From contig NMRA01000318.1 of the NCBI GenBank assembly GCA_002633005.1, forward strand, positions 273,594 to 337,593: DNA of 64,000 nucleotides, given 5' to 3'. Position 1 is the stretch's first letter. Every line of letters begins with the position of its first letter. Under the pieces are notes generated by a model. It was not told the origin of the DNA and searched no databases. It was given only the letters and a program-made list of their open reading frames with translations. This document shows positions 39,801 through 64,000 of the stretch, piece after piece. Both the position numbers and the translations under genes were made by a program. The DNA comes from Phoronis australis. Taxonomy: Eukaryota; Animalia; Phoronida.

Positions 39801-42800
39801 GAACGGACTGAAATTGGAACTCGATCCGGTCTAGGCCTGAATGCCGCAGGCATACAGGGGCAATTGTAAATCCCCATAAAAAATTAGTCATTTCAAAATA
39901 CAGCAAATAAAATCAATTGAAACATGCATATGGGGCATGGAGTTATAATTAGCCCATACCCTGACTTTGGATACAATTTAGTCTACAAATAACTTGAACA
40001 TGTCACTCGAGTTTCTCTCAGCGGGCACCATTTTGAGGAAGTTACGTGAAATCACGCTTGTTGACAAACAAAAAGACACAAATCTTACAAATTTCAGTTG
40101 ATATTTTCCCATGCTATTGGGCAAGTGCCACGTGCCAGGTCACACGCTTTGCTCAGTATTGCGCTAGCCTTTGCCTCATACTCACCTGACTCAGTTGAAA
40201 TACTTTGTGGTTATCGTGTGCGCAGTCAAAGTTAACAGTAACCAAAAAGTGGAGTTGGAATTCTTCGCCAAAGTCACCTGAATTCCCGTAGCTATGCTTT
40301 ATCGAAAATATATATAGAAGCAGAAAGGATCACTGAATAAAGTAAGCGCCTTTTTAGGTGATAATTTTAGGTGTGGAATGTATTTCTTGATGAGGTGAAA
40401 ACTTAATCAGTGAGCGGATTTCGCTTACCGCTCGTTTAAAATACACGGGACGAAATTAGTACAGAACGCGATGAAACGTATTGTAGTGCGAATCTGAATT
40501 TCATTTGCCATAACAGCAATGCTTGTTTGGCGTTTTTCACACTAAAAGATTAAAAACTCGACGTAAACAACAGAATACACTCTGCTACCATATCGGGCAA
40601 ATGGCCAAACGACAAGCTTTTGCCCCACTTCCGGTGATGTCACAGTTAAGTCTCACATAATCTCGCGTTATTGTTATAAACTCGCAAAAGGACTATTGCA
40701 GCCACGGCTACATCACAAACAGTATGCTTCTAGGGGTGTATATCAGAGATGTATATCAGAATGTTTGTTTTCGGGGTCTGTTAATTTTGGTAGAAATACA
40801 AAATTTTCACTCATTGGGTGTTGCTTTGTGACCACTGCATCATATCAATAATACTAAGAATGTAGTAAAAGTTGTTTAATGTCGATACATAAGACCTTCA
40901 TTTTGTGAAAATCCACTTGTACGCCACATCGAGTTTTACATGTGTGAGAACAAGTTTGACACATGAAAACGGCTTTGAAGGATTAGCAGTTCACTTTTTC
41001 TTACAATACAAAATAAGTAACCCATGCGCAAGATTCTGTAATAGTCCATGAGCCATCAATCAGATGCACATTAGATGTTTTCTGATTTGCTTTTAAAAGT
41101 TTCCAGTGAGAACATTTGTCAGATGTGTGATCTGTCTTCTTCTCATTTACCCCCAAATCAGTCGACTGATCTGCCTTCTTATCGTAAGCAGGCTACATTC
41201 CAATGGCATAATGTGCGGTAAGGCTCTGTTGGCTGGTGATGATTGCACTCCATTTGCGAGAATATTATCATTTTGCACATTGAAGTTACGCTAATTGTTG
41301 CTTAACAAAGTTGTTTTAAGCAGTTGATCTGCCTTCCAGTCACACAATCTATTTGCCTTGAACTCATAAATGTTCCACGTCTGCAGTAAATATGACCACA
41401 GTTCTTAAGAGCAAAAATACAGCAGAGACGCACGCACATACACAGACACACACACACATGCACGCTCATACACACAAACAATTCATTAGTCTTATTCAAC
41501 ATCAGTGTCACACTTTTTACACCAAGGTGACTGGTTTCAGTTTCAAGGAATGTGACAAATGACAGCACAGCAAATGTGGACTAAAGTTTGCTCTTGCCGG
41601 AACAAATAAATAAAACATCTATTACGTGTGCACGTTATTGCTTCACCTAGTATGCAAACCATAATCTTTTACACAAACTCCGTTCGCAAGCCTTGCAGAT
41701 ATGAGGCACACAAACTCAAGGTGGTAATTAAACAATTACAGTTAGTTTTTTTAAAACGAATTAAACAAAATTTCTTCTCGTCGAAACTTGGTAGAAGTTC
41801 AAAGCAAAAATTAGTGGCTCATTTTCATAAGATTTAGTGTTTATTTTCACGTGATTTCTGTCCGAGTTTTCGACATCACATCCACTTTTCGAAAACTACT
41901 GTAAAACTGTCTGCAGAACACTTAGCACAGGAAAGTGACCCTTACCACGCACCGTAACAACTCTACCACGCGCAAACAACCCTCATCACAGAGACTGGAC
42001 TAAAACACAAACTTAAGGTACACCTCCCACACATAATGTAGGTTCAGGTTGCCAAATAAGGATTCGTTTCATGAGGTGAATGTTCTTGCAGTTTGTGGTA
42101 CTTTGTGGGGAGTGGTAAGAGTTTCCCTTCAACGGTAATTATTCAATTACCAGCCCTGCGGCCTGCTTCCCCACTTAAGTAGGAGCTTAAGACCGAATTT
42201 CCGTCTTAAGTCACTTTTCATGAAACAGAATCCTGGATTTGACCATTCTACTAACCTTGCTCCTTTTCTGGGGCGTTAATTCCTTTTCTGTTTCCGTTAC
42301 GTAATCCTTTTCTTCGTAATACAGTTGACTCTTGAACTTAACTAGCGGCTAAAAAATAACACGGTGGTCGGTTAGACTTAAGGAAACCCGAACAATCAAC
42401 CATAACACAAGTTGTAAAATGAAGTTCACAGAGAAACATCACAAAATCTACGTGAAATTGAGCGCTACATAGGCGGGTAAAAATAAACAACTTTAAAGTA
42501 AGATGAAATAAGAATGAAGCAGATTACAAGGACACAAATAACACAAAAGAGCCCCATTCTTAACATAGTATTAACCACAGAAAACAAGGAGTGTTTTCAA
42601 CTGACACAAAGAGACAATGATGGTACCATCAGCCATTTAGCATGAATGTAATTGCCAAAAGGTCATTGTCTAATTTTCATTGGTTTACAACTTGGCTGCA
42701 AATAATCAAAATTTAACCAAGCGTTGTTTTATGGCAGCTGTTCAGTACAAACTATACTGACACTAAACAGAAAATTCTCTTCATGTTCATTTTTGTTGTA

Positions 42801-45800
42801 AATTTTAAAGTATTTTTCTGCCATATTGTTTGTTAAACAAGTGTAGAATTACTGTATTCAACCTTTTCAAAGTAATAACATTAGTCACATAAAGTGGAGC
42901 CTCAGGCCAAAAGCAATACAAATTTCTTTCACAAAATGTGCCCTCTGATGCTTTTCAGTCACCATCTATTTTGTTTCCATACGAGCCAGTTGCGGATTCA
43001 GAGAGGGGTAGAGGGGGTCCAGATTCCCACACGGTCACTTCTATATTTTTGTAATGGGGGAATCTCAAGTACCTCTTTGTTTGTTCCTTATCGGACTTCC
43101 TGGACAAAATTCTGGATCTGCGACTATGACATCAATTGAGATGGGTAACTCTGATCAGACTTCGCACAGATATTTTTAATTTTTAATTTTTGATTGATTA
43201 GATCATTTCCTGCACCATTTATTTCTGATCTGCATTTTTCAACATGACTTCTCAGAAACAGACACGTTATATTGAATACATTCTAATCACCTTTTTGACT
43301 AAACTGCATATCAAATACGGTACCTACTGTATGCATACTGGGTGTATACTCTATCAGTTGTTTCAAGTACTTGTATGCCATGTCTATGATTTAATACAGC
43401 TATATTGAATACACTGCGCACTGAATCCATGATTTTTAAACCGTGGTAAAAATATGCAATATACCGTATTAAAATACTTTACTGCATATACATAACAGGT
43501 TTACATCAAACTGGCTGAATGACTTCCAAATATTTGAAACAACAATTTTCATGTCCGCATACAAGACAATGCTCAATAGGTATGAAAACGCAGTTATTCA
43601 GCAATTCCCTTCAGTGGCAGACACACAAAATAGAATTTTAACAACTTCGGCTTAAAAGTTTAATTTCATTTAACCTTGGTTGTGTATTTCTGGCTAATTC
43701 ATGACCAACGTTTGTGTCTTTATTGAACAATTTGTACATCAATATGACAATAAATCAAAACTACATTACGAAGTTTGACAAACTGTCGGAATGTTTCTCT
43801 ACATTTATGCCCCCTGGCATCGCACATGTTAAGGTTAGCAATGAACAATTAATTACCGATGTCGCACCACACATAATTACAGCGTGAATAAAACATATGT
43901 TTAGTAATTCAAGCTAGAGCAGCCGGACAAATTTAAACAACAGCTGCTTATTGAAAGTGCAGTAACATTCCAGCCACAGCTGATCACCATGGCAACCTGA
44001 GGCACTTGGTTGTGACTGAAGCAGTCCAACACAAGGGCTTTGTGAAAATGGAATTTGAAGTACATCGACCCTAGACCACTTCTTCACCAGAAAGTTATCA
44101 AGTCCCAAGTTTGGTTTAGCATGACGGTGCATGCATTGTTTTTCTCTCCATAATGTTCAGTAAAGGAAAACCTATCCAATTCCCGACAAAATAATATTAA
44201 AACAGCCATTTTCTCTAATAATGTTGTCATGCCGATAATTTTTCCATACCATTATCAGGTGGTATCATTGCTACAGAACATGAACATTGGAAAGTATTAA
44301 CTTGGTGTTACGTATCGTTCAACAAAAATGAGAAAAAATAGAAACTCTCGTTTCAGCCATATTGCGTCCTAAATTGGCAAGATTTTACCACATGGAAATT
44401 AAGCCCGCACAATCATTGCTCTCAATTATTATTTACATGAATAACCCCTACCAAAAAAAGCCATCACTAACGGGGGTTCTTGATTTTGAAAAATCAATTT
44501 GACGTTCGCTACTCAGAGGATATCAATTCCAGAAGCAAAAACGGGACCTTTGACCAGATCCTTCAATAAACAGGCCTCTTGACAGAAGCCATGAAGCACA
44601 AGGTGCTGCGAAAAGGGCCCAGTTTCTAATGAGACCAAGTCTTAATAAACCATTCTGTTCAGCTCAGAAGTGTGCCAGTGGTACCACCATTCAAAACTAG
44701 GTTAATGACGCAGTGCGTTTTCTACTCCTGCAAAAGTGAAAAGTTTAATTCGGCAAGGGGAATTTCATTGTGACAAATTGGGTTCATTTTGCAAATCCTG
44801 CAAATTGAGCCTATCCAACTGGACATAAAACCTTATTTTCATAAGAAAACGACACTAGTGCCCAATCTAATGAAAACGGGCTAATTTCGAGATGGCCGGC
44901 CAGCATTACAATCTTTGAAGTTTTACTACTCGTAAATGCTTCGGTTCTAGACTATGAAAATGAAGTCCTATCATGATAAGGAAAATTCTGACACTGGTTT
45001 TCATTTTGGTTTCGCAAACAGCTTAACAGAAGGAAATGTAGTTTTAAGTGAATGAAAACCAAGTTATTTGAAGATTTGTCATTTACTATGCACGCACATA
45101 ATTTTATGGATGTTTAATGCACTATCCTATGCCTGCTTACATTGATACTGTTGAAAGACCAAGGCGATTTACTAGAAAAGGGCATATCAAATTCAGTTTC
45201 AAGCGGAAGACAACCAAGTAGTTTTTGACATCTATGTCTAAGGTTTAGGTGTACACACAGGATGTGCTGCTCAGACAATCCGGACTTTTTCACAACAGTT
45301 CTCCAGCAAAAGAGGTCTTCATCGAGTTACATTCCTCCCAAAAGGGGGTGTTTAGAATGTCTCCAACAGGTACACTGCATCAACAGCAGTAGGGTTAACA
45401 TGCTGTAGCTTGTATTTTTGTGTCCTGAATTTTAATGGATTGCTACTGTAAGCATTTGGAATCAACTGCCAGCAAGATAGGGTAAAACCTCACCAATTTC
45501 GGACAAAACTAACGCTTGCTAAAATTGCCTTCTTCATGTTTCCAAGGCTTCAAACATTGGTATGAAAGCCTACAATTTCTCAAATCATTGCCAGATGCTA
45601 GCTATGCAGACTTGGAATGACCACTGATAAGAAAGAGGAAAAAATTTCCAGGTGATGTATCATTCCACAAATAGGCCTGTGTGATAAGACTTTTTTTAAT
45701 TCAACTGAAATGAACGTTTTTGCCGGCATAGTCAAAATAATGATAAAAGAGATGTGAAAAAAGAGGAAACAGAAACCAAAAAAGAGGAAATCCCCTTAAA

Positions 45801-48800
45801 AGAGGAAAATTCCAAGCCCTGGTGTAGAAGCCGAACATGGAAAATATTAAAATCAGATACAACTTATCCTTAATGAAAAATTAGCAAATATGTCCTAAAC
45901 TAGTGGAATTTGACCGCAATGTTTTCGAATTTTAATAAAACATGCGCCAGTGGCCTGGTGCCTTTTGTGGTGCACCAGGTGTGCTAAGGCCACAAGGTTG
46001 CGCCCATTTCACTAATCACCTGATTAAGACTCAGGAAGATTCTTAAGCATGAGGTTCATTCTAAGTCTTCTAATCTTCCTGTTCTTCAGGAAATCAGAAA
46101 GGCTATTGTACCTGCACCATCTGTCAATGTCTACAAGGCAACTTGTATGTTGTCCATCCAGATTTTAATACAAAAAATGTAAAGAAACTCTATGAAAAGG
46201 TGACCTGTTTCATCAGTGAAAGCTTCCAACAAAAATGTCCCTTCATAAGAATAAGCTTTCCAAAATTTCTAATAGCGTGGTGGTAATTGTAATTTTCCAG
46301 CAATAGACTACTTAATTCAAAAAAATAAAAACATCAGTTTAACCCTTACTCTGCTCAGTTGATACTACAGTAAGGCAACAGTATAATGTAAACACAAACA
46401 CACAAACTTCACCAAAAGGGTTTCACAGCCTGCACTTGAAACCACTGATGGGCTCCCAGTGTAATCCAAGGCCCTGAACATGTATATACATACCCAACAT
46501 ACCATCAGGGGGCAGATAACGCTTGGCTGAAGTTAGCCAGTCAACCAAGCCACAGTCATCATAGCAATGCCAAGAAGAGGAGAAACAATGCAATAAGTGG
46601 AGAGACACACCATGATGTCAAGCAGACAAGAATGAGAAGGGATGAGACAGAGATACGACCCCATTCTGTACAGAGGTAAGGTAAGCAAGACTGTCTTTAT
46701 GGTGTACAAGCACAAGCTTATTGAATTCTCATGTGCATGAACATTCAGACACAAAAACGTATTAATGTTTTACTAAAACAAAGATTTAGCAGGTTTTGAA
46801 ATGGATGGTAGTGAATGTTGAAACGTGAACTGTAGCTGTTTCTTTTTCACCAAATCATGAATGGAAATGTACTTTGCATGCACACTTTGAGCCACAAGGC
46901 AACATTGAATTACTTTCTATAAGTTGTATGGGCTGAACCATCAACTCGAAAGCTTTCGAGGTTATATGTCTTCTGTGCACTTTAAAATTTTAGTGCGAAC
47001 AACTCAAAATGATTGACGTTGCATTGCAAGGCAACAATTGAGCAATGAAGTGTTCAACCAGTGTTTGCCAAACATATGAACCCATGTATTAAAGACTGGC
47101 TCTCAGGATATATGAGAAAAGCTAAACTGCCTTGTGTGACCCTTATGAGAAACTGTAGCTCCTTAATGGAACATTAGCGGTGAGAAAAGTGGTTTTCTGA
47201 CATCATCCCAAGCAGAATCAAACCCGCAACCCTTATGGTCGCAGTCCAACACTGCTTGTGGAGCTAAACACCATTTGATAAATGGTAGAGAATTTTAAGT
47301 GTATTTGACTGGCGAATTCACAAGCCTCAATTTCAGCGAATGTCTGGTAAACAATGGTGAGAGTTGGTGATTCGTAATAAAATAACAAAGCAACAATGGA
47401 TTTTGTTGTTTTAAAGCTCTGGTCAAAACTAATAATTGTACTAAGTCTATCCCACCCAACAACAATCACAAGAAATTTCCACTTAGNAACCACGCTAATA
47501 ACTATTTAATTGGTGTTGGAGGATCCAAGGGATTAACTGTGGTATGGTGATAAAGAATGGACAGGTCTTCGCGAAACAATGAGCAATTATAATTCTTATA
47601 GCCACGCAGTCGTCTGCGATTTCAAACGCAATTTTGCCTCCTCTCAAACAAAAATGACGAAAATTCACTCACTTCTGTCAAGGTGTAATGACAAAATTGA
47701 AGAGAACAATATTGGTTTTTTCAGTTTTGGAAGCAAATCTATTTCTTATAGAAAAACAACACATTGTTGTTAATCTAGTGAACAAATAACAAGTCAGTAT
47801 CTTTATTATAATTCACACTTTAGCAATAATGCCAAAAACAAACATGAGTGATGGGACTGTGAAAAACGACCAACAAATGGAAACAACTAAACCACAACTA
47901 GATGACAAATAGACGACAAATCTTCTCTTCATTCCAATCTTGCCCAACATCATGAACAAGGAACTGCAAAGACTTGGACCAATTAAAATCCAGATTACAA
48001 CACATTATCGCACACAAACTTCCCTTGCTATACACTCCAACAGCATTTGTTTTCAATTACCTTACATTTCATAAGAAAGCAGCTACTTCCCAACACAGGC
48101 TTTGTTAGTAATTACCTTAATTTCATCATAAACCACTACATCCCCCCCTGCCCTGACGCCGCCCAATTCAAATGCATGCCTTGTTCAAGATCAGATGTCA
48201 AGAGGACTTGTCAGAGAAAGTGGCCAAAGCCTGCCAGTTTACTAGGGTCAATATGGTTTTATTAAAAACAACTATATCAACAGCACACTTAGGCTCTTCC
48301 AGACAGAGCAAGGGAAATGAGAATTGATTTTTCTCAACGCCAGTGATGCGGAGCAACAAAAAGGTAGACATCAGACAAAAAGCCCTCGAGCAATTGCTCC
48401 GTGATCATTATCTAGATTCAAGAAGCCATAGGACAAAAGGTAAGGTGCTCTGATCCATTACATTTGATGACTGCAGTTAAGTGTGGACCATTTGATCTAA
48501 ACAAGACTTGATCAAGATAGCTTGCAAGCAGTGAACCATTAATATGTCATCATAGTGGGTTTAAAAAGAACAACTGTGAGGCAAAGGCTGAGAATAGTAT
48601 AGAATAGTGTCATCAAGCCTGTCCAGACACAAAGGACGTGTCATCTTACAGCAACCTGTGCGTTCATTTCATGCAGAAAGACTTGCATAAGAACCACAAT
48701 AGGTTCAGCAGGAAAATTTGGCTCGTTAGAATTAATTTACATGGGTTCAAACTAATTTCCATGAAAAGAGTAATTTGTGAAATAAATTGAAAATGCTATT

Positions 48801-51800
48801 AAAGTCCAAAAAGCAAAGTTGATTGTGGTCTGGTCTGTACCCAGACTCATTTTGAGATCTGCATTTACCAACTAAAAATAATGTTAAAAAATGTCTGCCT
48901 GCATCAATTCTCGATTTTTTTTAAAAAAGCTGAACAAAGGCACATAAGCAAGAATAAGCAAAGTGTGAAACACCGTGATGTTGTCAAGCCATGAGTAAAA
49001 AAAATCTCTCATCATTTGTGGAAGTCTCAGGTGGATTATCTTTTTTGAAAAAGTGAGCAACGAAACTACCGCACCACTCTAATTAAAAAAAAAAAAAAAC
49101 ACTGACTAAAACCAACTATGATATGCTTTTTAGCCATTTGAATGAATTACTAATTTATTCCTCTGGAGACAAATAAAGTCAAGACAAAATTCTAGATTAG
49201 ACTAGAATCATAATTTACTTCAAGAACATTACAAAAAGTTAAACTGACTTGATACAAGATCATTTCACAGGGACAAACTTGTTCTCTAGACAAAGACTCC
49301 ACTTCACATCCCACTTTTTAATATAACAGGTGCTCTTTTAATAAACTCATCCCGTGCATTTATTTGCATGTTTTTTCAATCGATGATTGGCACTCGGTTT
49401 ACGAGACTTTCCACTGACATTAAACAGGGTATCCCCTGTTGTTGATATTGAAACCCAACAAACACAGATGTCTACTACAGAAGTTGAAATCTCTGGCAGT
49501 GTTATGCTATGAATCATGACCCAAACTACACAGCTCCTGCAGTTAATAGATGTGGACAGATAATGTGTTTTTTGAGAGAATGTGCATGCTTGTCAGATGA
49601 GCAATTGCATCTTCCCTGCGAATATTTCTGGATTCTCTTGAAATGTTTTTCCAGCTTTATCAAACAATCTAAATGTAGGTTAATAGCTTGTGCAAAAAGA
49701 CCTGGAGGTGTCTAAGAGATTGCACACCATCTTTAAGACAGTTCAAGTTTTCACACAAATACCCTACATCTTGAAATGGGTGACCATATAGCACTTAAGT
49801 TTAAGGTGAAAATCTTATCAAAACAACTAGTTTGACTCGATCAAATAACTGTTTTTTCAATGTGCATTTGACAAGTGATAATTGTGAAAATTAAAAAAGT
49901 GTTTAACGAAAGGTTTGCAGTGATACCGGCACAACTTAAATCATTTCGTCACTGTTTACGATAAAATCTCACCAATTTCTGACAAAAATATTCTAAAATT
50001 GGTCTTTTTCATTTTCAAAAGCTTCTAACGTTATGATAGTAGCTGTGGCGTAGACCTTTAGAAATTATATAACATTTATCTGGAGCTACTTACTTTTTAC
50101 GAAAATAAAATTTCACTTGTGTCCTGAATTATTGAGACTATGCCATACACGGATTTAGAAATAACACAACAAATTTTCATTACTTTGCCCTCATCCGTGT
50201 TTCCAATCCATTTAGTTTTGTTGCAAATCAACCTTGGTTGGATCAGTGAACAACACTGGTAATTCACAAGCTGTTGTAAGACTACAGCATCTGATAACAG
50301 ATCAACAACACAATAACCAAACCAATATCAAGAGCATAGCAGAATGTCTTGTGGTGGCAATAACAATAAATACAACAATGGTGATAACATTCCAACCAAA
50401 ACACAGCCAAGCACCATACAATGCAATGTGACTCCAATAAGCTAATTACTGTTCACTCTACCCACCAATAACACAGCTCTTCTATTTATTCAATCAATTA
50501 TAAACTTATCCACAACAGTTCACAGGCACTGCAGCATACAGTACAGGTCAAAAGTATTCAGACAAAATGACCCAGAATTCCTGGTCATGAGGCCTGGGCA
50601 GAAGTTCAATTCTTTATCAGAGCAGCTTTGTGAGCGAGAATGAAGGGGAATTGACAAGAAAGTGAGAAAGGTGGCTAAGCCAGTCTGTAACAAGAATTTT
50701 GTGGCTAAAATAGTCAATATCAATTATTTTTGCCGTAAACATATACTTAGCTGTCATGACAGGAAATGGGTATTTTGTCCAACTACTTTTGTCCTATACT
50801 GTACATACAGAGAAATCTTTGCAAATCCAGATGAGGACAATGGCTCTGTGTCGAACCAATCTCTTATTTTCTAATTTGGGAAATTGATGCAGACATTGAC
50901 ATGAACGTCATTATGTGGACAGACTTCTTAATGAGGTAGGGGTTGGTTAGTTGTTGTCTAGTTAAGCATCTCAGTTACATACATGTAGAACTGTTGTTGA
51001 TGTGAATCATTAGTCATCTTGTATGCAAGTATTGTATAACCACAAGCTTTAATACCAGAAGGTATTTCTTTTCTGTGGCACTGCAATGGCACATTAAATG
51101 ACCAGTTTAGCTCCAGTCTCTTTTTGTATTGAAACGAGACATCAGGCTAATTTTGTACAGGACTCGGTTGTGTAATATTTCAAAACTTATATGCTGGATA
51201 GCTTGACTGCTGAGTGAGAATGGGATGTCATCGTTGCTATGGTATATAGCGCACATAACTTTATGCAACTGGGCCCTGATAAATTGTTGATCCACAGTCG
51301 GATTTTCTATTTTTCACCGACTAATAATTTCTAAGTTTGAACAAAGTCTACCTACGACAAAATGTGCACTGTGAGACAAAACCAACTTGCCACCAACTGT
51401 GTACCAAAACAATTCAACAACTTGGTGCCAATTTTTTGGAATAATTCTAAATAAATGGTATCTTCCAGAATCCCGAGTCAAAGTGAACATGCTTTGAGCA
51501 GAGCCAACACTGACAACCAACGATTCACCTCAGGAATGCCAGACAGGAAGTAGAGACCAGAGTGACTGGAGGTCTGACCCGGCTGAGATACCTGAGAGAA
51601 AGCTACTATTTGGACTAATGTGGATTAAGATGTCAGCTAGCTAAAAAACAACTACACATTTATCACAACAGACTAAGTGATGTTGTACGTGGATAAGAGT
51701 TGTGCTAAATCATTAGTCTTGGGAAGCTGATCGGATTGAGGGATTGACTGTGAAAGGTTATTTCTGGCTTGAACATTATCGGCCTTCTGAGCACTTGTAG

Positions 51801-54800
51801 CCATAGGGTCATTCACAAGCCAGATGCAAGCTGGATTCAATAACGAATGTGGGGGGAAGGATTTAGTCAAAATATGACAATGCCCATTTCATGAGGAATT
51901 TAGCAAGGAATTTAAGATGCATTTGACCAACATGGAAGGAAATCCAGATCCCCATGTGTGGGGTGTGGAAGAAAAATATGCTGTGTTATTCGGAAGCATG
52001 GCTACAGTCGTGACACTGACAAGCACTGTGTTGTTGCTAGCTTGCTGCTGTCCAAAGAAGAAGTCGTTATCGCTGGATTCAGAGAGTGTGGATGAGGTGC
52101 GGAGCGTAAACACTCCAGCTAAAGATGAGGAAGAGATTTTACCAAAAATCATAATGTAAGTATCAACAAAGAGCTCAAACAGCTGCTGTCCATTCGTTAT
52201 GAATTAGGCAAAAACTTTCTAGTTTGGGGAACTGGAGAATTTGAAATAGTTTTTTGTCACAATGTCTCTTTCTTATCAAAGCTAACAAACGCTCAAAGCG
52301 AACCAAAAGCTAAAACACTTGATTTTCAAGAATCAAGTCATAAGTAGAACTTGTAGGACGGGGCAACATAAAATCTGTCCAAAATACTTCAAAGACTACA
52401 AAAAAATGTTAATAAAGACACATGTATTTCACTTTCAATATAGTAACAGTTTCGCAGAGAAAACAAAGACTAGAATAAAAAAATTATGACTTTTTGATCT
52501 AATGATCATCAAATTCAGTAGTCATGGGTGTAATTTTCAATGCATTAACACAATTATATATTTCAACTAGAACAGTTACTATAGCTTAACACAAACAGGA
52601 TCCCACTCCAGTCATACATGCTATCTGTACTTACAAAATGACAAAATTATGACTTATGTACCCTCAACATTGCATGCTAGAGAGAATGACAACGTTGCCA
52701 ATATACATAGCAAGCTGGCAAAGAACATTCAAAATCTTGCAGAGACGGAAAAAACTCCCGAGTCTCCGTAACGGAGATGGTGCGGTCACTGGAGACTACG
52801 AAGGAAACCAATAAACCCCTGTATAAACCAGCAAAGAAGGCACCGCAAAGTGAAGCTTTCAAAGAGTTTGAATCATCAGGCCTCATTATTGGCATGGTAA
52901 GTAAATACGGTAAAACTTCTTCAATTTGGTAACACTCTATGGCGGACAGGAGTGTTAGCAAGTATTGCACAGGTACACTTTGATAAGTCAGTTATTACAT
53001 TCTTCTCATGGAACATGCTGACTTGTTCTTAATCTTGGTTGTTGCCTAAAGTCAACACGGTGAAATTTCGTTTTGTCAACTTTCTCAACAAAAGTAACTT
53101 TTCCGGAAACCTTACTTTGCGTTTTGCATGGTTTGTATGGCGTAGCAATCACCGAACAACATTTGGTAAAATGGTGAGCATTTGCAACAGGGTAAACCTG
53201 CCAAAAATAGAAATATGGCAATTTTAACAATTATTTTTGTCCCAAATTCAAGATTTTTTTACTGTAGGTGCTATTTTGTAAAGTAATTGCTAACAAGTGA
53301 TCTGTCTCAGATGCACCATAATATGAGTAACGTTATTAAATGCCTTAAAGGTGCTGTATTGGTTATTTCCAAGACAGAGTTCAAAAGTGCATCTGTCTAG
53401 CCTGTATGTAGAGAACAGCATCTCAAAAGAATACCTAATCTAACCAATTTCCAAAAAAAGGTAATTAAAATTATTCATTTTCCAAGGTCTCCTAATAATT
53501 GTTGTGGATGTCAATTTTCAAAATACTTTTCTGATGGTAAAGCATTACTTTGGTGCTGCTTATCTTTCATAAAAAACAAGAAAATTAAATTTCACTTGTC
53601 AGCAATATTGCGTCTAACTTGCTTAGATTTTACATAAATGTCGATAATCAGCCTATATGACTTCAAATGCCACCTCTGTTGAAGCCAAAAGCCTCATAGA
53701 ATTAAATGGCACTTTCAAGTAATGCTAAACAAGGTTAATATTCATTATTTTGTTTGGTTGCCAAATGAGCTAAACATCGTTTATTGCTTGCTTCTATCGG
53801 CATATTCTTCACTGGAAAGTAGATTTATTACAGTTAGATTTTTTACTTAGTTGACCTTGTCACTGCGTGTTACTTCCTAACTGAGATAACTTTTCAGCTC
53901 ATGTGAACTTCCTGCTTTCATTTTATAATTTATAGAAATTATGGAAACGATGATAGCACTGGTCTTGTCACAATCTGAAAAGGTGTCGAAAACCTGGTCT
54001 GTCTAGAACACGAATAACCTCACACCTGGCAACTTTGTATACTTCACAGGGCATGACTAAGAAAGACCGAGGAAATGGACAAAAGACTGATTTTGAAATT
54101 CCAGTGCAAATTGCCAATGGCAATGACAAAGAAGGGTAACCATGATGGCAAAGTTAACAAAAATGTCTCATTGAGATTTAGGGTGACCTCCCTAGACACG
54201 AACAACCCTGATATTGGTTTAGTGTTACAGTTGCCTTTAAAGGAACATTCTCGGTGAGAGAAGTAATTTCACAGAAATTAACAGTAGCCTGGAATCAAAC
54301 TCACCAATTGGTCTACAGTGGCTGTTGAATACTCTGCCGCTAAATCAAATCCCACGTGTTTAAAAAGCAGAGTATCTTAAGTGTATTTCAAAAGTAAAAA
54401 TTCCTAGCATCATTTCAGGGAATGTTTGGCAGACAATAGCGAGAAATGTCGATTTGTAATAAAATCAAGAAAACACAACAGATTTTTGTCTCATCCAACA
54501 ATAACCACAAAAATTAGATTGACCAAAAAACCCGATAATGTTCCTTTAAAAATAGACAAACCACATAAACAAAGCATGTCTAATTTCTTCAGCAGACACA
54601 TTGTAACTTTGTAGAACCAATGGTATTGTAAGATAAGAAGTCATTTGAAGTATCATCGGATAACTTGAACAAAAGAATGCTCACTAACGAACAACTAGGA
54701 ATCTTAATTGAATTGAGAAGATCATTTGCACTAGTTCGTGAAACTTGTATAACTAAGCATCTTGGGATTTTGTCACAAGAAACCAGGGTGAAAGGAAGAG

Positions 54801-57800
54801 CTATTTATAAATAACAGACAAATAATGTTTCCTTGTCATGAGAGTTAATAACAGCAAAAATGACTGAGAATAACTATTTGGGTGGCAAAACTCTAGTTAC
54901 AGAAAGGCTCAGCCGTATTACTAACATTCCTGTCAATTTCCCTTCATTTTCGGTCACCAGAGAAAACTACTGACAATGAATTCAGCTTCTACCCAGTTAG
55001 TAGTCATGACAGTGCATTCTGGGTCATTTTGTCAGAATACTTTTTCTTGTGGCTTGCATTGCGTGTCTAGCGCTTCACGAAAGTGGCGGAAATTAAATGT
55101 TGTGTCTTTATTATTACAGAAGTAATGAAACAAACAGCACTAACGATGAAAATAACCAAGAACAATGGGAAACTGTTACCACGGTAACGACGACGACGAA
55201 AACAACCAAACTGTAAGTTCATTCCAGGCAAACGCATGTTCAAGCTGGTTGCCATAGCAATGAACCAGTTCATGAAGCACCTGACATAACAGCACAGTTT
55301 GTGTCCGCAGAATAATTGTTATGGGAAAATCTAAATAATTGCCAAATTACCCGTATGATTTTCCAGGTATTTCAATATTGTTGCGAAGGCTCACATTTTT
55401 TTCAAAATATTTCCTGAGTGTAGCTACTATACAGAACTTGAACACCGTGAAGCATTGATTTGATGATACTCATTTTTTTAATAAAAAAATTAAATTTCAC
55501 TTGTCCGCCATATTGAGCCTCGAAGTGGTGGCATTTTACTGTACTCATCAAGACTAGATAAAAACTACTACGGTAAACTTTCCTAAAATCGCAACACAAA
55601 ATAATCGCCAAAATTGTCAATTTCCGTTGTTCAAAAGCTCACTGCAATGTAAAAACAGTTCAGATTTCAGCATGTTTTTTTTTTAAGTCAGCTCTACAAC
55701 ATAAACTGTGTAATCACTGAACTAAAGTTTTCCTGATGTTTACTTTTGTTAAAAATTTTGATAGCATAAAATTTCACTGTTCAGTCATATTGTGTTCTAA
55801 ATTCAAGAACCTTTTGTATCCTTTCTTTCCTTGCACACGCAGTCCAGACGTGGTACATTCTACCAGTGCAGAGGAAGACGAATTCGAAGGCATTGAGAGG
55901 AACTCAGAACTACTGTCCTCAGTAAGTCAGGTTGAAAGCAGCTGCAGATCAAATAATCTTCTCTGTTAATGGGACATGTATTTTGTTGGCCTTTACCCGC
56001 TGATTAAATCTGCTACTAGAAGCATGTTGACATAAACAGCAAAAGTAATTTAAGCTTTCTCTAACAGCTTAATTTGGCTAACTTCAGTACCACACATCCA
56101 ATTTCTCGTCATCATCAACTCAACTGACCATTTCAGTTCAGGAAACCAGCGCCTCCATGTAGACGGAGTTCCGGCAAAAATGGGAAACGGTCACCTAGGA
56201 AACCAGCCTCAGCAATAGCAATTCAGGTACAGATATTGGTGTTACAATACTTATATACGGTACCGTACTTAGTGACGACTTCATTTATCACTCACGCTAA
56301 AAATGACCAGCAAGCCGAACCTTTAATCTTCAGTATTTTGCACTTTTTGGTCAAACTTATAATGGTTACACATTTTTTGTGTGACCTGTATAGTACCTAT
56401 TATATTGAATAATAAAAAGATTAAAACTGAAAAAAGGTTAGTTCTTCAAAAAATCTGCAATTCGATTTACTTACTTTTACTTAATCCTAGTTTTCATGAA
56501 GTGAGCTTCGCCAGAACTTGTCTGCATCTCACTTGGACACAACAAACCCCCACAACACATTCTGGGTCTAAAAGTCACTACAGACTAGGAAGCAAATACT
56601 TTTAAAAATCTCATTTACTTACAAGGACAGATAGCCGAGTACCATTCAAATTGGACTACTTTGTAAGTCAATTCTGCCATTTAATATGAATATACATTTG
56701 AATTGTTCGAATAATATGGCAGCAGACCCTCTTGAAAACAGAATTCGCCAAGCACACGACAGCGATGTCAATGGACGATTTGTAAGAAAACCGTCAACAG
56801 ACAACGCTGGTGTGCATTAAGTGAATTTAAGTCCAAGTATATTTATTTTTTAGATAATTGTAAACTGTCTGATTATTTCATACATCAGGACGATTAATGT
56901 TTCAAACCGTTATCATACAAAATTGTCAATTTTGCAGAAGACCACAGATCCAGGACTGAATGAATGGAGTACAGTTCTAGACGACTTCTCCTTTGGTCCA
57001 TCGCTTGGAAGCAAAAGTAAAACACTCAGACCCTTCTCTCGTTATATTACATATTATGTTTATTATCGTAGATCATTAGCTATTAGCAACTATCTCCTTG
57101 GCAACCAAGTAAATGATATTCATTTAGCTTCAATAACCTGCTATAGCCGTATTTCATCGTGTAGATTTACAGCAGTAATCATTTTTCAGTGCAAAAAATC
57201 TAACACTCACGTATTTAAGTTGTTTTGTAATACGATGGCTTTATTAAGTCTATAGCATAATACAGCGTGTACACTGGAGGATCTAAGATGTAGTAAACAA
57301 GACCCAACCTCAACTTTCAAATGAAAAATGTCCGCGCAGGCCTTAAATATGGCTCCACCTCATTTTTTTCTTGTCCATGAGAAGCTCCATTAATCTGCCA
57401 ATGGTATAGCGCAGGTATTTGAACTAACCAAACATAAATCTGTCTTTGTCCTGTGTATTGAAGACGTAGCAGTTTACAAGAAAACGACAACAGAGGTCAT
57501 GCCAGATGGTACTGTAGTAGAGAGGACAGAGACATCTTCTGGGCCCTTCAGGAAGACGGCCATTAAATCACCACATCTCAGGGAGGATACCCCAACAATT
57601 ATTGAAGTGGAAGAACTGGAAGGTCAGCTTCAATGTTAACAGGATATCTGCTTGTTGAAGAAAAATGGAATTTACTGAACCGGTCGTGCAGAGTTCAAGC
57701 TGCGACGTGTCAATCTTTATCTGGGTTCTCACACCAACTGCATAATCTCACACCAGGTTTTAAAGTCTATTATCGAATGATTAGTGCATAGGATCTATAA

Positions 57801-60800
57801 GTTGAACAAATGTGCCGAGAATATGCACATGGAAGTTAAACACAAATCATTACATTCCTAATCACACTAACAGACAAATGTCATTTGTAAAAGGGCACAG
57901 GCGGGACTTGGCCTATACTTAACCAGATGATATATAGCGAGAAACTAGTTCTGATGTGGAATAAAGCTTGAAGAAGACTGTAATAACTTGTTGATATAAC
58001 AGAATAACTGTCCAAGACAACTTATAACAGCAAACCTTTCCATTTACAGGTGTCTTTCCAAATGACGACACAATGTGTGAGACTCTAAAGAGAACGAGGA
58101 AACTGTCCATGCAAAAGCACAACTTCTCGTAAGGCTAAAACGAATGTTTAATGTACTGTACTCCTTCCCCTGTTTAGCACAAAATACAGTCGACAACTTA
58201 AATTTTAGTTTGTCAAGTTCTAATATAAATGCTTTGATTACCAAAATTTTTGTCTATTGTTAGCTTGATTTACACAATGCAGATACCATAAACATAACTT
58301 CCCATTGCTTGCAGAAAGTAATAGGCATTTTTCACAATTATTTTTGTGCAAGGTAAGCAGAGAATTACGGTACCTTAAAATAATAACAGAACCATACTCT
58401 AAGTCCACAAAGAAAATTCAACAGACGTTTTCATTTATCGCCTAATTATCCAAAACAAAGTTTAATTCTTAAGGTCCCGTGCAAATTAGGTCAAGCCGAG
58501 GTCATAAACCTCAAACTGGAATAAGTCAAGTTAGAGGTGGTGAATCACCACATTCAAGTACTCAATGAACTCCACTTGGTCCACGGTGTTAACCGTTTGT
58601 GTCTTGAAACACTAACTCACGACATTAAAAAAAAAGATTTCACCCAAAAACATAAGCCGAAATAATGGTTTTTCAAAAATGACCATTGCACATGGCTTCA
58701 AGAGATCTTCCAAAACTGTCATTCGTGCACACGTATGTAAATAGTAACTTAATCCCCAAAGGGCCAAAGACATACAAGATACTTTGAAAATTAATATCAT
58801 GGTCAAAAAAAGTGATTCACAATTCATATAATACCTAGTAGACCAAATCACACCTTTAACATGCAACAATTTCAAAAGCAACTCTTTGATCTAGGTACGA
58901 CGATAGTGATATGGACACAATGCGACGGAAAAAACAAGGACAGCGCCTCGTTAAACACTTTCCGTAAGTAGGTTTGGTTCAGAAGTCTCTCACAGATAAA
59001 ATTTGTACAAGGAAATGTCCGAATACTGCCTCGACTGTTCTTTTTTTCGAAAACAACAAATCCATTATTCTAAACTTGGTTCTTCTCACTTCTTGTTTGA
59101 CTTCCAACAGGGGGTACTAATTGCATGTGTTTGACTCTATAGCTGCACTTCTAAGACATCGAATTGGTCTGTTAGCCAGAAGCTGTCGTCGAAAACGAAT
59201 CAGATGTCTTAACCAGTTGACCTGGCAGAACCATCCAAGTCAATCAACTGTACCTAAAGTAGCATGTGCTTAGCGCATTGTATCAAAATCTCAGTACACT
59301 ACAACTGGGAACATATGTCACATGGTTTACATGAAAAAATAATTGTATTCGTAAAAACAGAATTGCTTCATAATGGAAAAGAACTAAAGCTTGTGAGAAA
59401 AAAAGTACATTTGCGAGAGAAGAAGTGAAGGAGATCACATTTGATGTACATTATTTTGTGACTTACAGTAACTCTTCTACACTACGGATCGGTACAAAAT
59501 CGTATGTGAACAACTATTTGTGTTCTGTACATAATTTACTTAAAAGTGTTGTGCAAATAATCAGAAGACGTTAACAGCCAGGTGCAAAACATCAAACGAG
59601 GCGTGGATGAACTATGAGAAAAAAATGCACAAATGACTGAAAAACCCATAGCAAAATGCAAAAAATGCGAGCACGTGAAGTGTTGCAGTTCCAATAATAT
59701 GAAAACCCTTATAAATTAAACTCAGCTATTTCATCATTTTTCAGTGTTGAAATAACAGTTGAGAAGGTTAGTAAGGAAGACAAGAACTCAACAGGTGAGT
59801 AGAACAGGTGTTACACACACGGATATATTAAAACTTATCATAAACCCGCACATTTCATCAAATCCACCTTTTCTTTTAGACCTCTGCTGCTATGAAACTG
59901 ATTTCAACTTCTTCCTTGCTTAGATGTTCTCAGTTTCTGCATGGCTGATGCATAAATTGATACACTGTGACAAGCCAACGTATTGGGTTTGTCTGGTTAG
60001 CAACAAACAGACATTTTTTGCAAGTCCAAAGTTAGTTAAGAAAATTTAAATCAAAATCATAAAACCAAGTGGTCTAAACAAAAAGTTAATTTTTAACATA
60101 AGAAGTGTTTAAAGGCACATAGTAGTGCAGTGTACCTAGTTGTCATATGTAGAGTCGAGATTTTTAACGACCAAAAAACTCATATTTTCAGGAATATAGC
60201 AAATCGACTGAATCAGTGTAAGTTGTCAAATGTTCTATTAATCATGAATCGAAGCCAAATACTACAGCCACAAACTAATAGGGTCGTTTCCAAATCACAA
60301 CCAAATCTAGAATAAATTAAACTTGCTGTCCGTGGGGAATCTAGCCGTACAAGCAAACGACGACCTCTAGGTGGGTTACAGCCATGCAAATTTAGGAACA
60401 CTAACACAGCCTATTAAAAACCTCTAAAATGTGTGTTAGACAATAATGGAGAATTTTTAGGATGCTGTAACATGCAACTTCACTATGTCTATGTCGTCAA
60501 CTGTATTCTCTATTTCAGCGGCAAATAGAAAGATAAGTAGAGGCACACTTGTGTTGGACCAGTACGGAAATCTTGTGATAAACAAGTCGAGCTAGCAGAA
60601 CTGTGTAACTGGCAAGAGTGAAACAATTGTCAAAGCAGTCAAGGTCACGTGTGCTGACAAACACGGAGCGTTAAAGTTGCGTTGAGCGCAACATCAGCCA
60701 GTCAAAAACGAACAGCTTCAAAATTACATTGAAATAGATAATTAAGCCAAAAATAAACCTGTGAGCTTCATTATGACGACATTATAAACAAAGAAACAAG

Positions 60801-63800
60801 TGGTAACTAGCTTTATTTTACAAGTCATTCAACACTTGCTATTATGTGAAACAATAAGGATCACATTGCCCTATTTGCAGCTCAAAATAACTTTAATTTA
60901 AGTTTTCACTTTAATTTAAGTTTGCACTTTAATTTAAGTTTGCACTTTAATTTAAGTTTGCACCGGTATGGTGGAAATAAAGTGCAGCACTGCCACATAA
61001 TATTTACATTAAAAAGGCTGCGTGATACATCAACTGCTGATGGAGTACTGTTGACTGGCAGATAAGATTACACATGAGTACACTGTACTGGCACGCCATC
61101 TGTCTGTCAGATTGACCTAAATTCAAGGAATACGCATAAGTATTTGGGCTCTGCCTATCAGAAATACAATGTCAAACCAAATTACAATGAATAGGAGACA
61201 GCAGTGTAGACCAAGGAGCTAACAATTATGCGAACAATAAGCAAGACTAACCCAATAAGACCAAAGTGTGGCTCACCGGATGTTGGTTGTTAAACTGATT
61301 AGCAAAATGTAGAAGTGAAGATATCAGCAAGAATTTGTATTCATTGAGCTATTTATTGCTTTTTTCTATCATCAGTTATAAAGCACAAGCTTTGAAAGTC
61401 ATAGTTGCTGCTTTCACGTGCTTAGCTTAGAAAGTTTTTAGTGGGCACTCTCTCCATTGCTAGGTTGTGGGGCCACGTGAACTTGTTATAATTGTACAGC
61501 TTAGCTAATGAATACAATTGTTGACCAAAGCGCATGATTTAATTGTCTTCTACTGCTTACTCTCTCTTAACATTGACGACATTATCACAACTTCTACAAT
61601 AGCGAAATAGCAGGTAAAGAAAAACAAATTTTTGGGTGACTATGATCTTTAGTTCATACAAATTGATTAGGCCCGCTCACAAATGTACTTTTTCGACTTC
61701 AAACAACACTCACTGCATGTTTTTCACATTTGCACATTCTACAGCTTCCATTGGCCAAGGGTGAATATACATTGCCTCCCCCTCCCCGGGTTTCAAAATT
61801 CATTCGAGTCTCTTGACTTGTAATTCTTACGTGCAGAAACCTGCTTGAAGGTTATGTAGGACAATATTGACAGGTTCGTGCATTTAACAAAATATCTAGA
61901 AAAGTATAAATTTAACTCAGTAAAAGTATATATTTCTGAAAACAGAAAGGCTGTGGAATTTGATTTTTGACTTTTTAACAAACTGTTATTAATTAGGTCA
62001 CGGAACCATGCCTTTTTGGTAAAATTTAGCAAAAAAGAAAGATACATTGACAGAAAAACAACGGTATCAATCACACGGTCAAATTTTATTTGATACAAAT
62101 GAAAACTGGAACATTGTTAAAACAGTTCCTAACAGCACTTTTGAAAACAGTACATAAAGCAGAGTATCCGAAAGTTTCATAAGAATCCGATCAGCCGTTT
62201 CTAAGATGTGATGTTCCGAAGTCTGCCAAATTTGGTCATTTTTATAGAGTCCTACACCACTTCAATGGGTCCTGCGTAACATTAACGAGAACATGACAAA
62301 AAGTAAAAAAATATGAGCACTGCCCAGGAAATCGCTTTCGCATAAAATGCATGTTCTCATTCAGTACCTAGCATACCACACGCACTGGTAAGATGAGCTC
62401 AGCAGGAGACGGTGTGGCTCAGTGGTTTGAGCTCTGGATTCCCGTTTGGGAGACCCGGGTTCGAATCCTGGCTCAACTGGCTGACAATCAAAAACAGTAA
62501 GAAAAAAGCATTCCAAAACCTCCATAACAGTTGTATCCAGGCTCAAGATATTGAACTTATTGGTAACCATTCTATGCCATCAAATGCAGAAACCTATTTG
62601 TGCAATTGCTGAATGAGGTTTGGTAGAATTTGTAACTACCAGGTGGCATTGCTGTCCACAAACAAGGCATGAACTAATATTAGAATTCAAGTTACTTATT
62701 CAACACCACAAAATATTGGGTCGACTCGAAATATTCAGGTCAAGACAATCCAATCGGTGTATAGGCACCAAAACATCATGACAATATGCGGTCAAATCAT
62801 GACATCACAGATCAAGTTTGAGTTTACTGGGAGACCGAGACAAAAACTGACTTCAATTACCATGGGATCATACATCGCTTCCAATAAAAACACAAAATTC
62901 ACCTAGTTGTAGGCATTCAGTAAATCACACAAGACTCTCTTCCGACGAACACATGCGAGTACACTGCAATCTGTTCTCTATTTAGGTAATAGATAGAGGA
63001 CGCCCTCTTCATTACCACTACTCACTGAATATGGAGATTCTTATCGTTAGTGACACAGCCATATATCCTACCTTATCTTTGTATGAGGAAGGAAGAAGCA
63101 AGGAAGGTTCACTGGGACACGGAAGGTCGATATAGAACCCCACTACGTCTCCCTCCTGGTAGCTTTCACCGTAATGGTAACCGCGGCTCTCGTGGAAACG
63201 AGTTCCTTTCCTCGAACGATAGGAGTAGCTGAACTTATCGTAGCCGCACGGGGCTTGAAGATTACCTGGAAGGTTGGGAATAATTAATCAGATAGATGTT
63301 TCAGAAATCAAAGTCTGAACTCGCACGAGAAGTTTGACATGGGCCAGTTACGAAACGCATTGCAACAAGTGACGAGTGCCATTTGTCACATCAGTTTACA
63401 TTGAACAAACTATTTCGTCAGTTGAAAAAACTATGAGCATGACTTACAACAATACATTCCATCTAATCTATTCAAGTTGACATCAACTACAAAATTTCCA
63501 TTTTAATACGCATGTTTACTAGTTTTCAACAACAACTGTTCAAGTATTATGTGTGCTAGCAACCATATTATACACAACAGCTGGAGTAAAGTGATTTAGA
63601 TACATTTTCAATTTAATTCCCATGCATTAAACAAAGAATTTAGCTACAATAATGGAAACATGCAACTCAAAAGAATACAAGAGCAATAGACAGAACTGCT
63701 ACATGCGTGATGCTTGGAAATGCCAAATAACAAAATCAACTACCAATCTCAAGTATAGTGTCTGGCCATACCTAGCGACTGGGACCAGCCAATCCGTGCT

Positions 63801-63861: not shown

Positions 63862-64000
63862 CTGCATGTAACAAACAGAAACAGGTCAAGGCACAAATTG
63901 TCATCGAAGATTTATTTCCTTCAGAATCACAAGCAGTTTATGTACACTCGGTAAAGATATTAAATAGTACTGGATAATAGGACAAAGCCAAATGAAAATC

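What the first reader, a model, noticed from the sequence alone, without database searches (positions are those of the whole stretch)
51932..60595. Complete 11-exon antisense gene hidden in a 20.7-kb ASH2L intron, encoding an unrecognised transmembrane adaptor-like protein
Seen: the other five ASH2L/intervening introns visible here are 0.5-3 kb, but the one splitting the SPRY-coding region (42349-63071) is 20.7 kb. On the opposite strand, 11 small exons splice with matching phase at all ten junctions into one stop-free 381-aa [59 protein letters not shown]...[10 protein letters not shown]...[21 protein letters not shown]...[25 protein letters not shown]...[24 protein letters not shown]...[29 protein letters not shown]...[22 protein letters not shown]. 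Most of these exons are invisible to the ORF track. Established: a short acidic ectodomain with no signal peptide, a TM helix, a juxtamembrane Cys cluster with basic residues and a disordered tail is the architecture of palmitoylated type III transmembrane adaptors (LAT/PAG class). Inference: this is a lineage-restricted membrane adaptor with basophilic kinase sites (RKLS, RKIS), transcribed against an essential COMPASS H3K4-methyltransferase subunit gene, so transcriptional interference is possible.
Basis: partly seen in the sequence, partly recalled or inferred. Interest (0 to 1): 0.8.

Follow-up and report, generated by a model that had tools for sequence, protein, structure and literature searches.

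The report
Old membrane-protein gene inside ASH2L intron
A spliced, expressed gene lies backwards inside a long intron of the chromatin gene ASH2L, here and in another, likely distant, animal, and it encodes an unnamed protein predicted to span the membrane once and likely to tie it to actin filaments; such nesting is common, though this pair is likely old.

Summary
The gene is real, but the model needs correcting. RNA reads confirm 11 coding introns (359 junction reads, all opposite to ASH2L): 12 coding exons and 412 aa, not 11 and 381, plus a non-coding first exon. It is not lineage-restricted. Metagenome contig L019 has a homolog antisense in the same ASH2L intron (blastp E 2e-8, nine intron phases in the same order), and L003 probably has another. 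12 of 24 ASH2L loci have a short intron there. The L019 protein has a mucin-like ectodomain and a PDZ-type tail; this species lacks both. No tail tyrosine is conserved, so LAT/PAG membership fails. What is conserved is the TM-CCC-basic anchor, a helix fitting the F-actin-binding motif SFM (Phe at P8 in L019, Leu here), and a Phe/acidic block. Best reading: a palmitoylated membrane-to-actin scaffold (about 40%, untested). ASH2L junction reads stay level while the nested gene varies four-fold, so no bulk interference shows. An extra ASH2L-strand exon lies back-to-back with the nested first exon. The scan noted this nesting before in another genome (e1-9070323).

The parts
42349..63071 (-). Host intron of ASH2L, 20,723 bp, splitting the SPRY-coding region (phase 0)
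   Evidence: model; 24 X1 reads join the flanking exons
63072..63265 (-). ASH2L exon upstream of the host intron
   Evidence: junction to exon 63772-63861 in 37 reads
42256..42348 (-). ASH2L exon downstream of the host intron
46350..46419 (-). Extra ASH2L-strand exon, donor at 46350, spliced to the exon at 42348; 5' end not determined (at least 69 nt in the best read)
   Evidence: 6 X1 + 7 X2 reads; candidate acceptors
46628..46680 (+). Non-coding first exon of the nested gene; start approximate, donor 46680
   Evidence: 4 X1 + 2 X2 junction reads
51469..52155 (+). Exon with the rest of the long leader (stops in all three frames) and coding exon 1 from ATG 51932 (in-frame ATG also at 51917): short acidic N-terminus, TM helix at residues 17-38, Cys-Cys-Cys plus lysines
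52743..52896 (+). Coding exon 2: SFM-like helix (residues 84-92) and the conserved AFxxFESxGxxIG block; 39% identical to the L019 exon
54050..54135 (+). Coding exon 3
55120..55212 (+). Coding exon 4, Thr-rich, phase 2-2, no counterpart in the L019 model
55843..55921 (+). Coding exon 5: conserved acidic-Phe-x-x-Ile block (LIR-like, residues 196-203)
56137..56226 (+). Coding exon 6: conserved basic/proline block
56938..57016 (+).
57464..57622 (+). Coding exon 8
58050..58128 (+). Coding exon 9
58895..58963 (+). Coding exon 10
59745..59794 (+). Coding exon 11 (50 nt, phase 2-1; the L019 counterpart is also 50 nt, phase 2-1)
60519..61600 (+). Last exon: coding part to the stop at 60595, then 3' UTR covered to about 61600 (AATAAA at 60752 and 60976)
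62568..63101 (+). Weak nested-strand RNA cover reaching the ASH2L exon; possible long 3' end
   Evidence: depth 2.6 and 4.5 in X1, X2; 3 of 42 and 4 of 22 reads at 63101 on the nested strand

Best explanation
This is an expressed 13-exon gene, nested antisense in ASH2L and shared with another animal, whose 412-residue product is predicted to be a single-pass, likely palmitoylated membrane protein that likely links the membrane to cortical actin through a short F-actin-binding helix in its tail. Shown: the transcript, exon chain, strand, sample-dependent level, one hydrophobic helix, and a homolog in the same intron. Inferred, step by step: (1) the helix inserts N-out, C-in (charge asymmetry; the homolog has its ectodomain on the N side); (2) the Cys cluster is palmitoylated; (3) residues 84-92 fold as an SFM-type helix on F-actin; (4) the conserved Phe-rich blocks in exons 2, 5 and 6 recruit a partner not yet identified; (5) the older form was a mucin-like surface protein with a PDZ-type tail, and this lineage lost both ends, leaving an adaptor-like anchor. 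The nesting is most likely an inherited arrangement that the host tolerates, not a device for regulating ASH2L.
For: Transcript. Coding constraint: 5 of the 6 single-base coding differences listed are silent against 22% expected (P 0.003; only the best-supported rows were shown, 240 were not). Homology: blastp E 1.9e-8; Smith-Waterman 184 against 58 +/- 12 for 500 local shuffles, maximum 104; intron phases 2,0,2,0,0,1,2,2,1 in the same order once window exon 4 is set aside and exons 7 and 8 are taken together; TM region 53 against 20 +/- 4, 0 of 1000 shuffles. SFM: the motif is V(P1)xxL(P4)xxxF(P8)E(P9) (PMC13364712). L019 has VKDRIKAFE, close to the PDZD2 entry of its Supplementary Table 3. 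The window has VTEMVRSLE at the aligned place; Leu at P8 occurs in 11 of the 65 rows of table part 1, among them DZIP1L and FBXO34. Each tail has exactly one match; 6% and 4% of shuffles do. The window segment is amphipathic (moment 0.57).
Against: No binding was tested or modelled. The paper calls P1 Val and/or P8 Phe essential and the window protein has Leu at P8; the Leu-P8 table entries are mostly predictions. My pattern was written after seeing the sequences, so the shuffle rates are optimistic. Only two sequences cover this exon. The L019 segment did not reach the 0.55 moment cut-off. The best-conserved part of exon 2 is the block after the SFM-like helix, which this reading does not explain. 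The L019 model has no RNA support. The direction of ectodomain loss rests on one homolog plus an unchecked note.
Confidence: 0.4

Rival explanations
1. Membrane-anchored disordered scaffold whose main ligand binds the conserved Phe-rich blocks (end of exon 2, exons 5-6), for example a trafficking or junction protein; the SFM-like stretch is incidental or decaying in this species.
For: Most of the 20 identities in exon 2 lie after the SFM-like helix; the only strong blastp segment is residues 113-219, which excludes it; P8 is Leu here.
Against: The S-V ... E frame of the helix is kept across a likely phylum-level distance, and L019 has the full V...FE form.
Confidence: 0.3
2. ATG8-binding receptor: the acidic F-x-x-I/V block in exon 5 is a LIR that couples this membrane protein or its compartment to autophagosomes.
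For: Acidic residues followed by F-x-x-I/V with Glu at X1 in both homologs; 2% of shuffles each (pattern written after the fact). Nearly half of LIRs have an acidic X1 (PMC8727931 passages).
Against: The acidic/hydrophobic pair after the core sits at +8/+9, not the +7/+8 given for FAM134B-type LIRs. A mucin ectodomain and PDZ-type tail in L019 point to the cell surface. LIR cores are common by chance (own knowledge).
Confidence: 0.12
3. Phosphotyrosine transmembrane adaptor of the LAT/PAG kind.
For: Short ectodomain, one TM, juxtamembrane Cys, no enzyme domain; one Y-x-N at residue 403.
Against: 4 tail tyrosines against 9-10 in LAT, NTAL, LAX, PAG; none aligned with a tyrosine in L019; the homolog has a long ectodomain.
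Confidence: 0.08
4. The arrangement is kept because nested transcription regulates ASH2L, by polymerase collision, by 3' antisense overlap, or by a divergent promoter making a short ASH2L 3' transcript.
For: Extra ASH2L-strand exon with its donor 330 bp from that of the nested first exon; nested-strand reads reach the ASH2L exon at 63101; exonisation near nested promoters is reported for same-strand human pairs (PMC3192792 section 6).
Against: ASH2L junction reads equal in X1 and X2 despite a four-fold difference in the nested gene. 12 of 24 loci have a short intron here, so ASH2L does without it. Drosophila tim2/2mit show no functional link (PMC3786989 abstract).
Confidence: 0.08
5. Artefact: chance exons or a non-coding transcript.
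For: Three protein searches and one phmmer search found no relative; the leader holds 17 ATGs.
Against: All 11 junctions read, one open frame, silent-biased variants, conserved homolog.
Confidence: 0.02

Closest known systems
Synapsin-TIMP host/nested pair (PMC2825198; passages read)
   Same: Multi-exon protein gene nested in reverse orientation in an intron of an unrelated gene, kept across distant animals and lost in some lineages.
   Different: There both genes are known families and the pair is mapped from cnidarians to humans. Here the guest is unnamed and fast-evolving, the host is a COMPASS subunit, and the range rests on two or three loci.
Drosophila timeless2 / 2mit (PMC3786989; abstract read)
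   Same: Chromatin or genome-maintenance host with an antisense intronic gene for a transmembrane protein with a disordered, motif-bearing tail; no functional link between the two was found.
   Different: 2MIT has a leucine-rich-repeat ectodomain and is reported from insects; this protein has none here and a Ser/Thr-rich one in L019.
SFM-bearing F-actin binders: ITPKA, neurabins, PDZD2, DZIP1L, FBXO34, PCDH15 (PMC13364712; abstract, passages, section 12, Supplementary Table 3 read)
   Same: A nine-residue V...[FL]E helix in a disordered region, preceded by Ser; L019 also has an RVxF-type and a PDZ-type motif (labels recalled; regex match).
   Different: Untested here; P8 is Leu in the window protein. 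No sequence homology to any of them was sought or found; the paper holds that SFMs arise de novo.
Transmembrane adaptor proteins LAT, NTAL, PAG, LAX (PMC3342071; passages read)
   Same: Short ectodomain, single TM, juxtamembrane cysteines, non-enzymatic tail.
   Different: Few and unconserved tyrosines; Cys-Cys-Cys instead of CxxC; homolog with a long ectodomain.
Unnamed nested gene in L019 (and probably L003)
   Same: Same ASH2L intron, same orientation, shared intron phases and tail blocks.
   Different: L019 model: 1,144 aa, at least 489 aa of Ser/Thr-rich ectodomain, C-terminal VKF...PTNV; the window protein has about 15 outer residues and no such ending.

Membership tests
Nested antisense protein-coding gene | Whole gene inside one intron of a host that is spliced across it | tested here: met
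   Exons 46680-61600 lie within 42349-63071; host junction read in 24 X1 reads. A minor 3' form may touch the host exon.
Nested antisense protein-coding gene | Transcribed and spliced from the opposite strand | tested here: met
   359 of 359 junction reads opposite to 37 of 37 host reads
Ancient host/nested pair (Syn-TIMP kind) | Same guest in the same host intron in distant lineages | tested here: met
   L019 clearly, L003 by its C-terminus. Depth is inferred from ASH2L identities of 62-69% among these loci and 64% to human; the organisms were not identified.
TRAP (LAT/PAG class) | Short extracellular part, single TM | tested here: met
   for this species; not so in L019
TRAP (LAT/PAG class) | Juxtamembrane CxxC palmitoylation motif | tested here: inconclusive
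   Cys-Cys-Cys, conserved in L019, not CxxC; palmitoylation itself not testable
TRAP (LAT/PAG class) | Multiple conserved tyrosine-based SH2 motifs | tested here: not met
   4 tail Tyr, none aligned with a Tyr in L019
TRAP (LAT/PAG class) | Phosphorylated by Src/Syk kinases downstream of a receptor | not testable with these tools
   needs cells
SFM F-actin-binding motif | Val at P1, aliphatic at P4, Glu at P9 | tested here: met
   V84, M87, E92 here; L019 has Val, Arg, Glu; Arg or Lys at P4 occurs in the paper's table
SFM F-actin-binding motif | Phe (aromatic) at P8 | tested here: inconclusive
   Leu here, Phe in L019; Leu in 11 of 65 rows of table part 1, but the paper calls P8 Phe critical
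SFM F-actin-binding motif | Helix docks on F-actin (model or co-sedimentation) | not tested
   no model obtained; no experiment possible
LIR/AIM with C-helix | Acidic residues then [WFY]xx[LIV] | tested here: met
   both homologs
LIR/AIM with C-helix | Acidic at +7 (or +6), hydrophobic at +8 or +11 | tested here: not met
   pair at +8/+9 in both homologs
Any Pfam family | Hit at the curated cut-off | tested here: not met
   0 of 11 window exons scanned (exon 11 not scanned); 0 of 10 L019/L003 exons; single exons only, so low power

The most novel reading that the evidence does not exclude
An undescribed, likely ancient family of membrane-to-actin linkers has stayed inside the same ASH2L intron across phyla; this lineage turned the mucin-like surface receptor into an adaptor-like anchor by letting the ectodomain half of the TM exon decay into 5' leader, and the nested promoter also fires backwards to give a short ASH2L transcript that could encode only the C-terminal helix.
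Probability: 0.15. Interest if true: 0.6.

Novelty: new member of a known kind. Interest (0 to 1): 0.33.

Why it matters
Nested antisense genes are common (9.5% of Drosophila genes are in nested structures; PMC3814207 abstract and opening), so the layout alone is ordinary. Three things lift it a little. The pair looks old, and its fixed address in ASH2L gives a way to collect orthologs of a protein too divergent for sequence searches. The family has no name, and its conserved motifs give a cheap test (actin co-sedimentation). The two homologs differ in topology class, a natural case of an ectodomain lost or gained around a constant TM and tail. It does not open a long-standing question unless the link to ASH2L regulation proves real.

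Tried and rejected
Protein searches, all blank and all with single exons, so weak: exon 1 (53 candidates, phmmer over 1.84 billion, 0 at E 0.001), exon 8, two-sequence exon-2 alignment. ESM Atlas: exon 1 gave only generic TM-plus-Cys hits (Stannin 0.93 with 161 of 256 features, families disagreeing), exon 8 nothing. No genome is held for the window or for L003/L019, so their upstream parts could not be read. The ASH2L scan of prokaryote genomes was empty. No RNA holder was listed by the index; the runs came by species label and were checked by laying them. A model of the exon-2 peptide on actin was not obtained, so binding is open. Earlier-findings look-ups near the place, for relatives and by sequence were empty. 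Paper searches: ASH2L + nested gene + intron, 0 papers; ash2 + intronic gene + antisense + invertebrate, nothing relevant among 12 of 31 listed; four motif strings, 0 papers; ASH2 is not in the main text of the ancient-microsynteny survey PMC3514665 and its supplements, where gene pairs are listed, could not be read. Rejected: a hidden ectodomain exon (longest stop-free + strand stretch in 42349-51468 is 92 codons; no such joint); an alternative PDZ-type last exon (no convincing candidate); similarity of the window C-terminus to L003 or L019 (not above shuffles). The L019 row of the identity table read through an intron and was not used.
Full report
Setting. The window is animal-type DNA (37% GC). 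On the + strand lie exons matching DUF4464, PROPPIN and polyprenyl synthetase (the names CFAP299, WDR45B and GGPS1 are recalled). On the minus strand lie the last six exons of ASH2L: exon 63072-63265 matches human ASH2L at E 1e-22 with 41 of 64 identities (counted from the alignment) and six exons join into one frame. Its introns are 506, 20,723, 2,996, 1,464 and 679 bp. The organism was not identified.

The gene is real. Three raw RNA runs with the same species label were laid on 49500-64000. Eleven GT-AG joints chain twelve + strand exons, with 284, 65 and 10 junction reads in X1, X2 and X3, all with the first mate on -, while the 37 reads of the ASH2L joint have it on +. At the third joint the reads carry five other letters at the start of exon 4, read as an allele. 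The twelve exons give one frame of 412 aa. A second lay on 41900-52300 (X1 and X2) showed the host intron spliced whole (24 X1 reads) and a non-coding first exon ending at 46680 joined to 51469 (4 + 2 reads). Depth is already near 38 just after 51469 in X1, so most molecules may start near there. The leader has stops in all frames and 17 ATGs counted from 46560. Five of six listed single-base coding differences are silent (P 0.003), from a truncated list.

Anatomy. One hydrophobic helix (residues 17-38), no second one, no signal peptide before it; net -3 before and +3 after, which by the positive-inside rule (own knowledge) puts the tail in the cytosol. Three cysteines follow the helix. The tail is rich in T, K, E and S and has four tyrosines. 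No Pfam family matches any of 11 exons scanned, and four protein searches with single exons were blank.

A homolog at the same address. An earlier scan note (e1-9070323) reported an antisense gene for an unnamed surface protein in the same ASH2L intron of another genome. To test this I scanned metagenome contigs with the ASH2L exon (the scan covered 29 of 64 parts) and got 24 loci. Of these, 2 are intronless, 12 have the next exon within 0.2-1.7 kb, 7 end too soon, 1 is a doubtful hit, and 2 (L003, L019) show no next exon in about 10 kb. In L019 the opposite strand holds two colinear matches to the nested protein; each alone is weak (E 0.16 and 0.87). A 13-exon model with GT-AG introns gives one frame of 1,144 aa (no RNA support). 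It matches the window protein at blastp E 1.9e-8, scores 184 against 58 +/- 12 for local shuffles, and shares nine intron phases in order. The L019 exon-2 counterpart finds the window exon at E 6e-5 among all loci. L003 holds the 3' part of an antisense gene whose C-terminus resembles that of L019 (60 against 31 +/- 6, 0 of 1000 shuffles) but not that of the window (967 of 1000 shuffles score as high), so its link to the window is indirect. ASH2L identities from the window to these loci (about 69%) are like that to human (64%) and far below the 87-89% inside the cluster L005-L013, which suggests phylum-level distance; this is an inference from 64 residues.

What differs. L019 has at least 489 aa of Ser/Thr-rich sequence before its TM helix, in the same exon, with a hydrophobic stretch near the start that could be a signal peptide (no predictor run). 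It ends in R-V-K-F ... P-T-N-V, recalled as PP1 and class I PDZ motifs; the RVxF pattern alone occurs in 28% of shuffles. The window gene has neither end, and no hidden ectodomain exon was found. Loss in this lineage is the simpler reading but rests on few sequences.

What is kept, and the mechanism. Kept are the TM-CCC-basic anchor, S-V-x-[ED]-x-[VI]-[RK]-x-[LF]-E in exon 2, the AFxxFESxGxxIG block, an acidic F-x-x-[IV] block and a basic/proline block. The first fits the short F-actin-binding motif SFM, VxxLxxxFE (PMC13364712). L019 has the canonical Val, Phe and Glu; the window has Leu at P8, as do 11 of 65 rows in part 1 of the paper's candidate table. One match per tail, at the aligned place, against 4-6% of shuffles (pattern written after the fact). 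I therefore read the protein as a palmitoylated membrane anchor that holds cortical actin and recruits a further partner (0.40). Binding was neither modelled nor tested. Rivals: a scaffold working through the Phe-rich blocks alone (0.30), a LIR receptor (0.12; core met, helix register off by one), a LAT/PAG-type adaptor (0.08; the tyrosine test fails).

Relation to ASH2L. Per Gb read, nested junction reads average 14.0, 3.6 and 0.6 and ASH2L 9.8, 9.1 and 2.5: the guest is sample-specific and the host does not drop where the guest is high, in line with the narrow expression and uncorrelated pairs reported for Drosophila nested genes (PMC3814207 abstract). One thing is unexplained: 6 + 7 reads splice an ASH2L-strand exon with a donor at 46350 onto the host exon at 42348, 330 bp from the donor of the nested first exon and facing away from it. 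Every larger candidate exon carries an in-frame stop; only a 15-nt version keeps the frame, and the reads run past it. A divergent promoter, a poison exon or a microexon intermediate all remain possible. If it is a first exon, the first in-frame ATG is in the last ASH2L exon and would give 30 aa, behind seven other ATGs, so translation is unlikely.

Against what is known. Reverse-orientation nesting kept across phyla is known from synapsin-TIMP (PMC2825198 passages), and tim2/2mit is a close parallel in gene type (PMC3786989 abstract). I found no paper on an ASH2L-nested gene; the supplements of the microsynteny survey could not be read and genome annotations may already hold the gene as an uncharacterised locus.

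Verdict. Real gene, corrected model, not lineage-restricted, not a LAT/PAG member. A new member of a known kind, already noted once by this scan in another genome, with a testable actin-binding lead. Interest 0.33.

Noticed in passing
window 46350-46364 (-): A 15-nt in-frame candidate microexon with good splice sites inside the long ASH2L intron; its donor is the one used by the 13 reads, its acceptor was not seen used.
   Followed up: partly
window 13783-16985: A 1.6-kb tandem duplication at 96.8% identity between PROPPIN-gene exons; could be real or two haplotypes placed side by side.
   Followed up: no
window 37260-37610 (-): A 117-codon Cys-rich open frame inside the last ASH2L intron with a weak ependymin-like Pfam hit (E 0.004, below cut-off); probably chance.
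   Followed up: no
window 46560-46680 + 51469-51931: The spliced leader of the nested gene is over 500 nt with 17 ATGs; strong translational control or a mostly downstream start is likely.
   Followed up: partly
window 50537-50590, 45779-45821, 54428-54467: Short repeats inside the host intron that collect hundreds of reads from elsewhere in the genome.
   Followed up: no
L019 640-565 (-): A possible alternative last exon holding LVLDQ, the same five residues as the window protein's last exon (E 2.6); may be chance.
   Followed up: no
L019-L023: These ASH2L genes have an extra intron inside the exon that is unbroken in the window, L003 and L005-L018.
   Followed up: no
L025-L034: Ten viral contigs, eight labelled as giant-virus MAGs, carry actin genes, nine with an ORF over 300 codons.
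   Followed up: no
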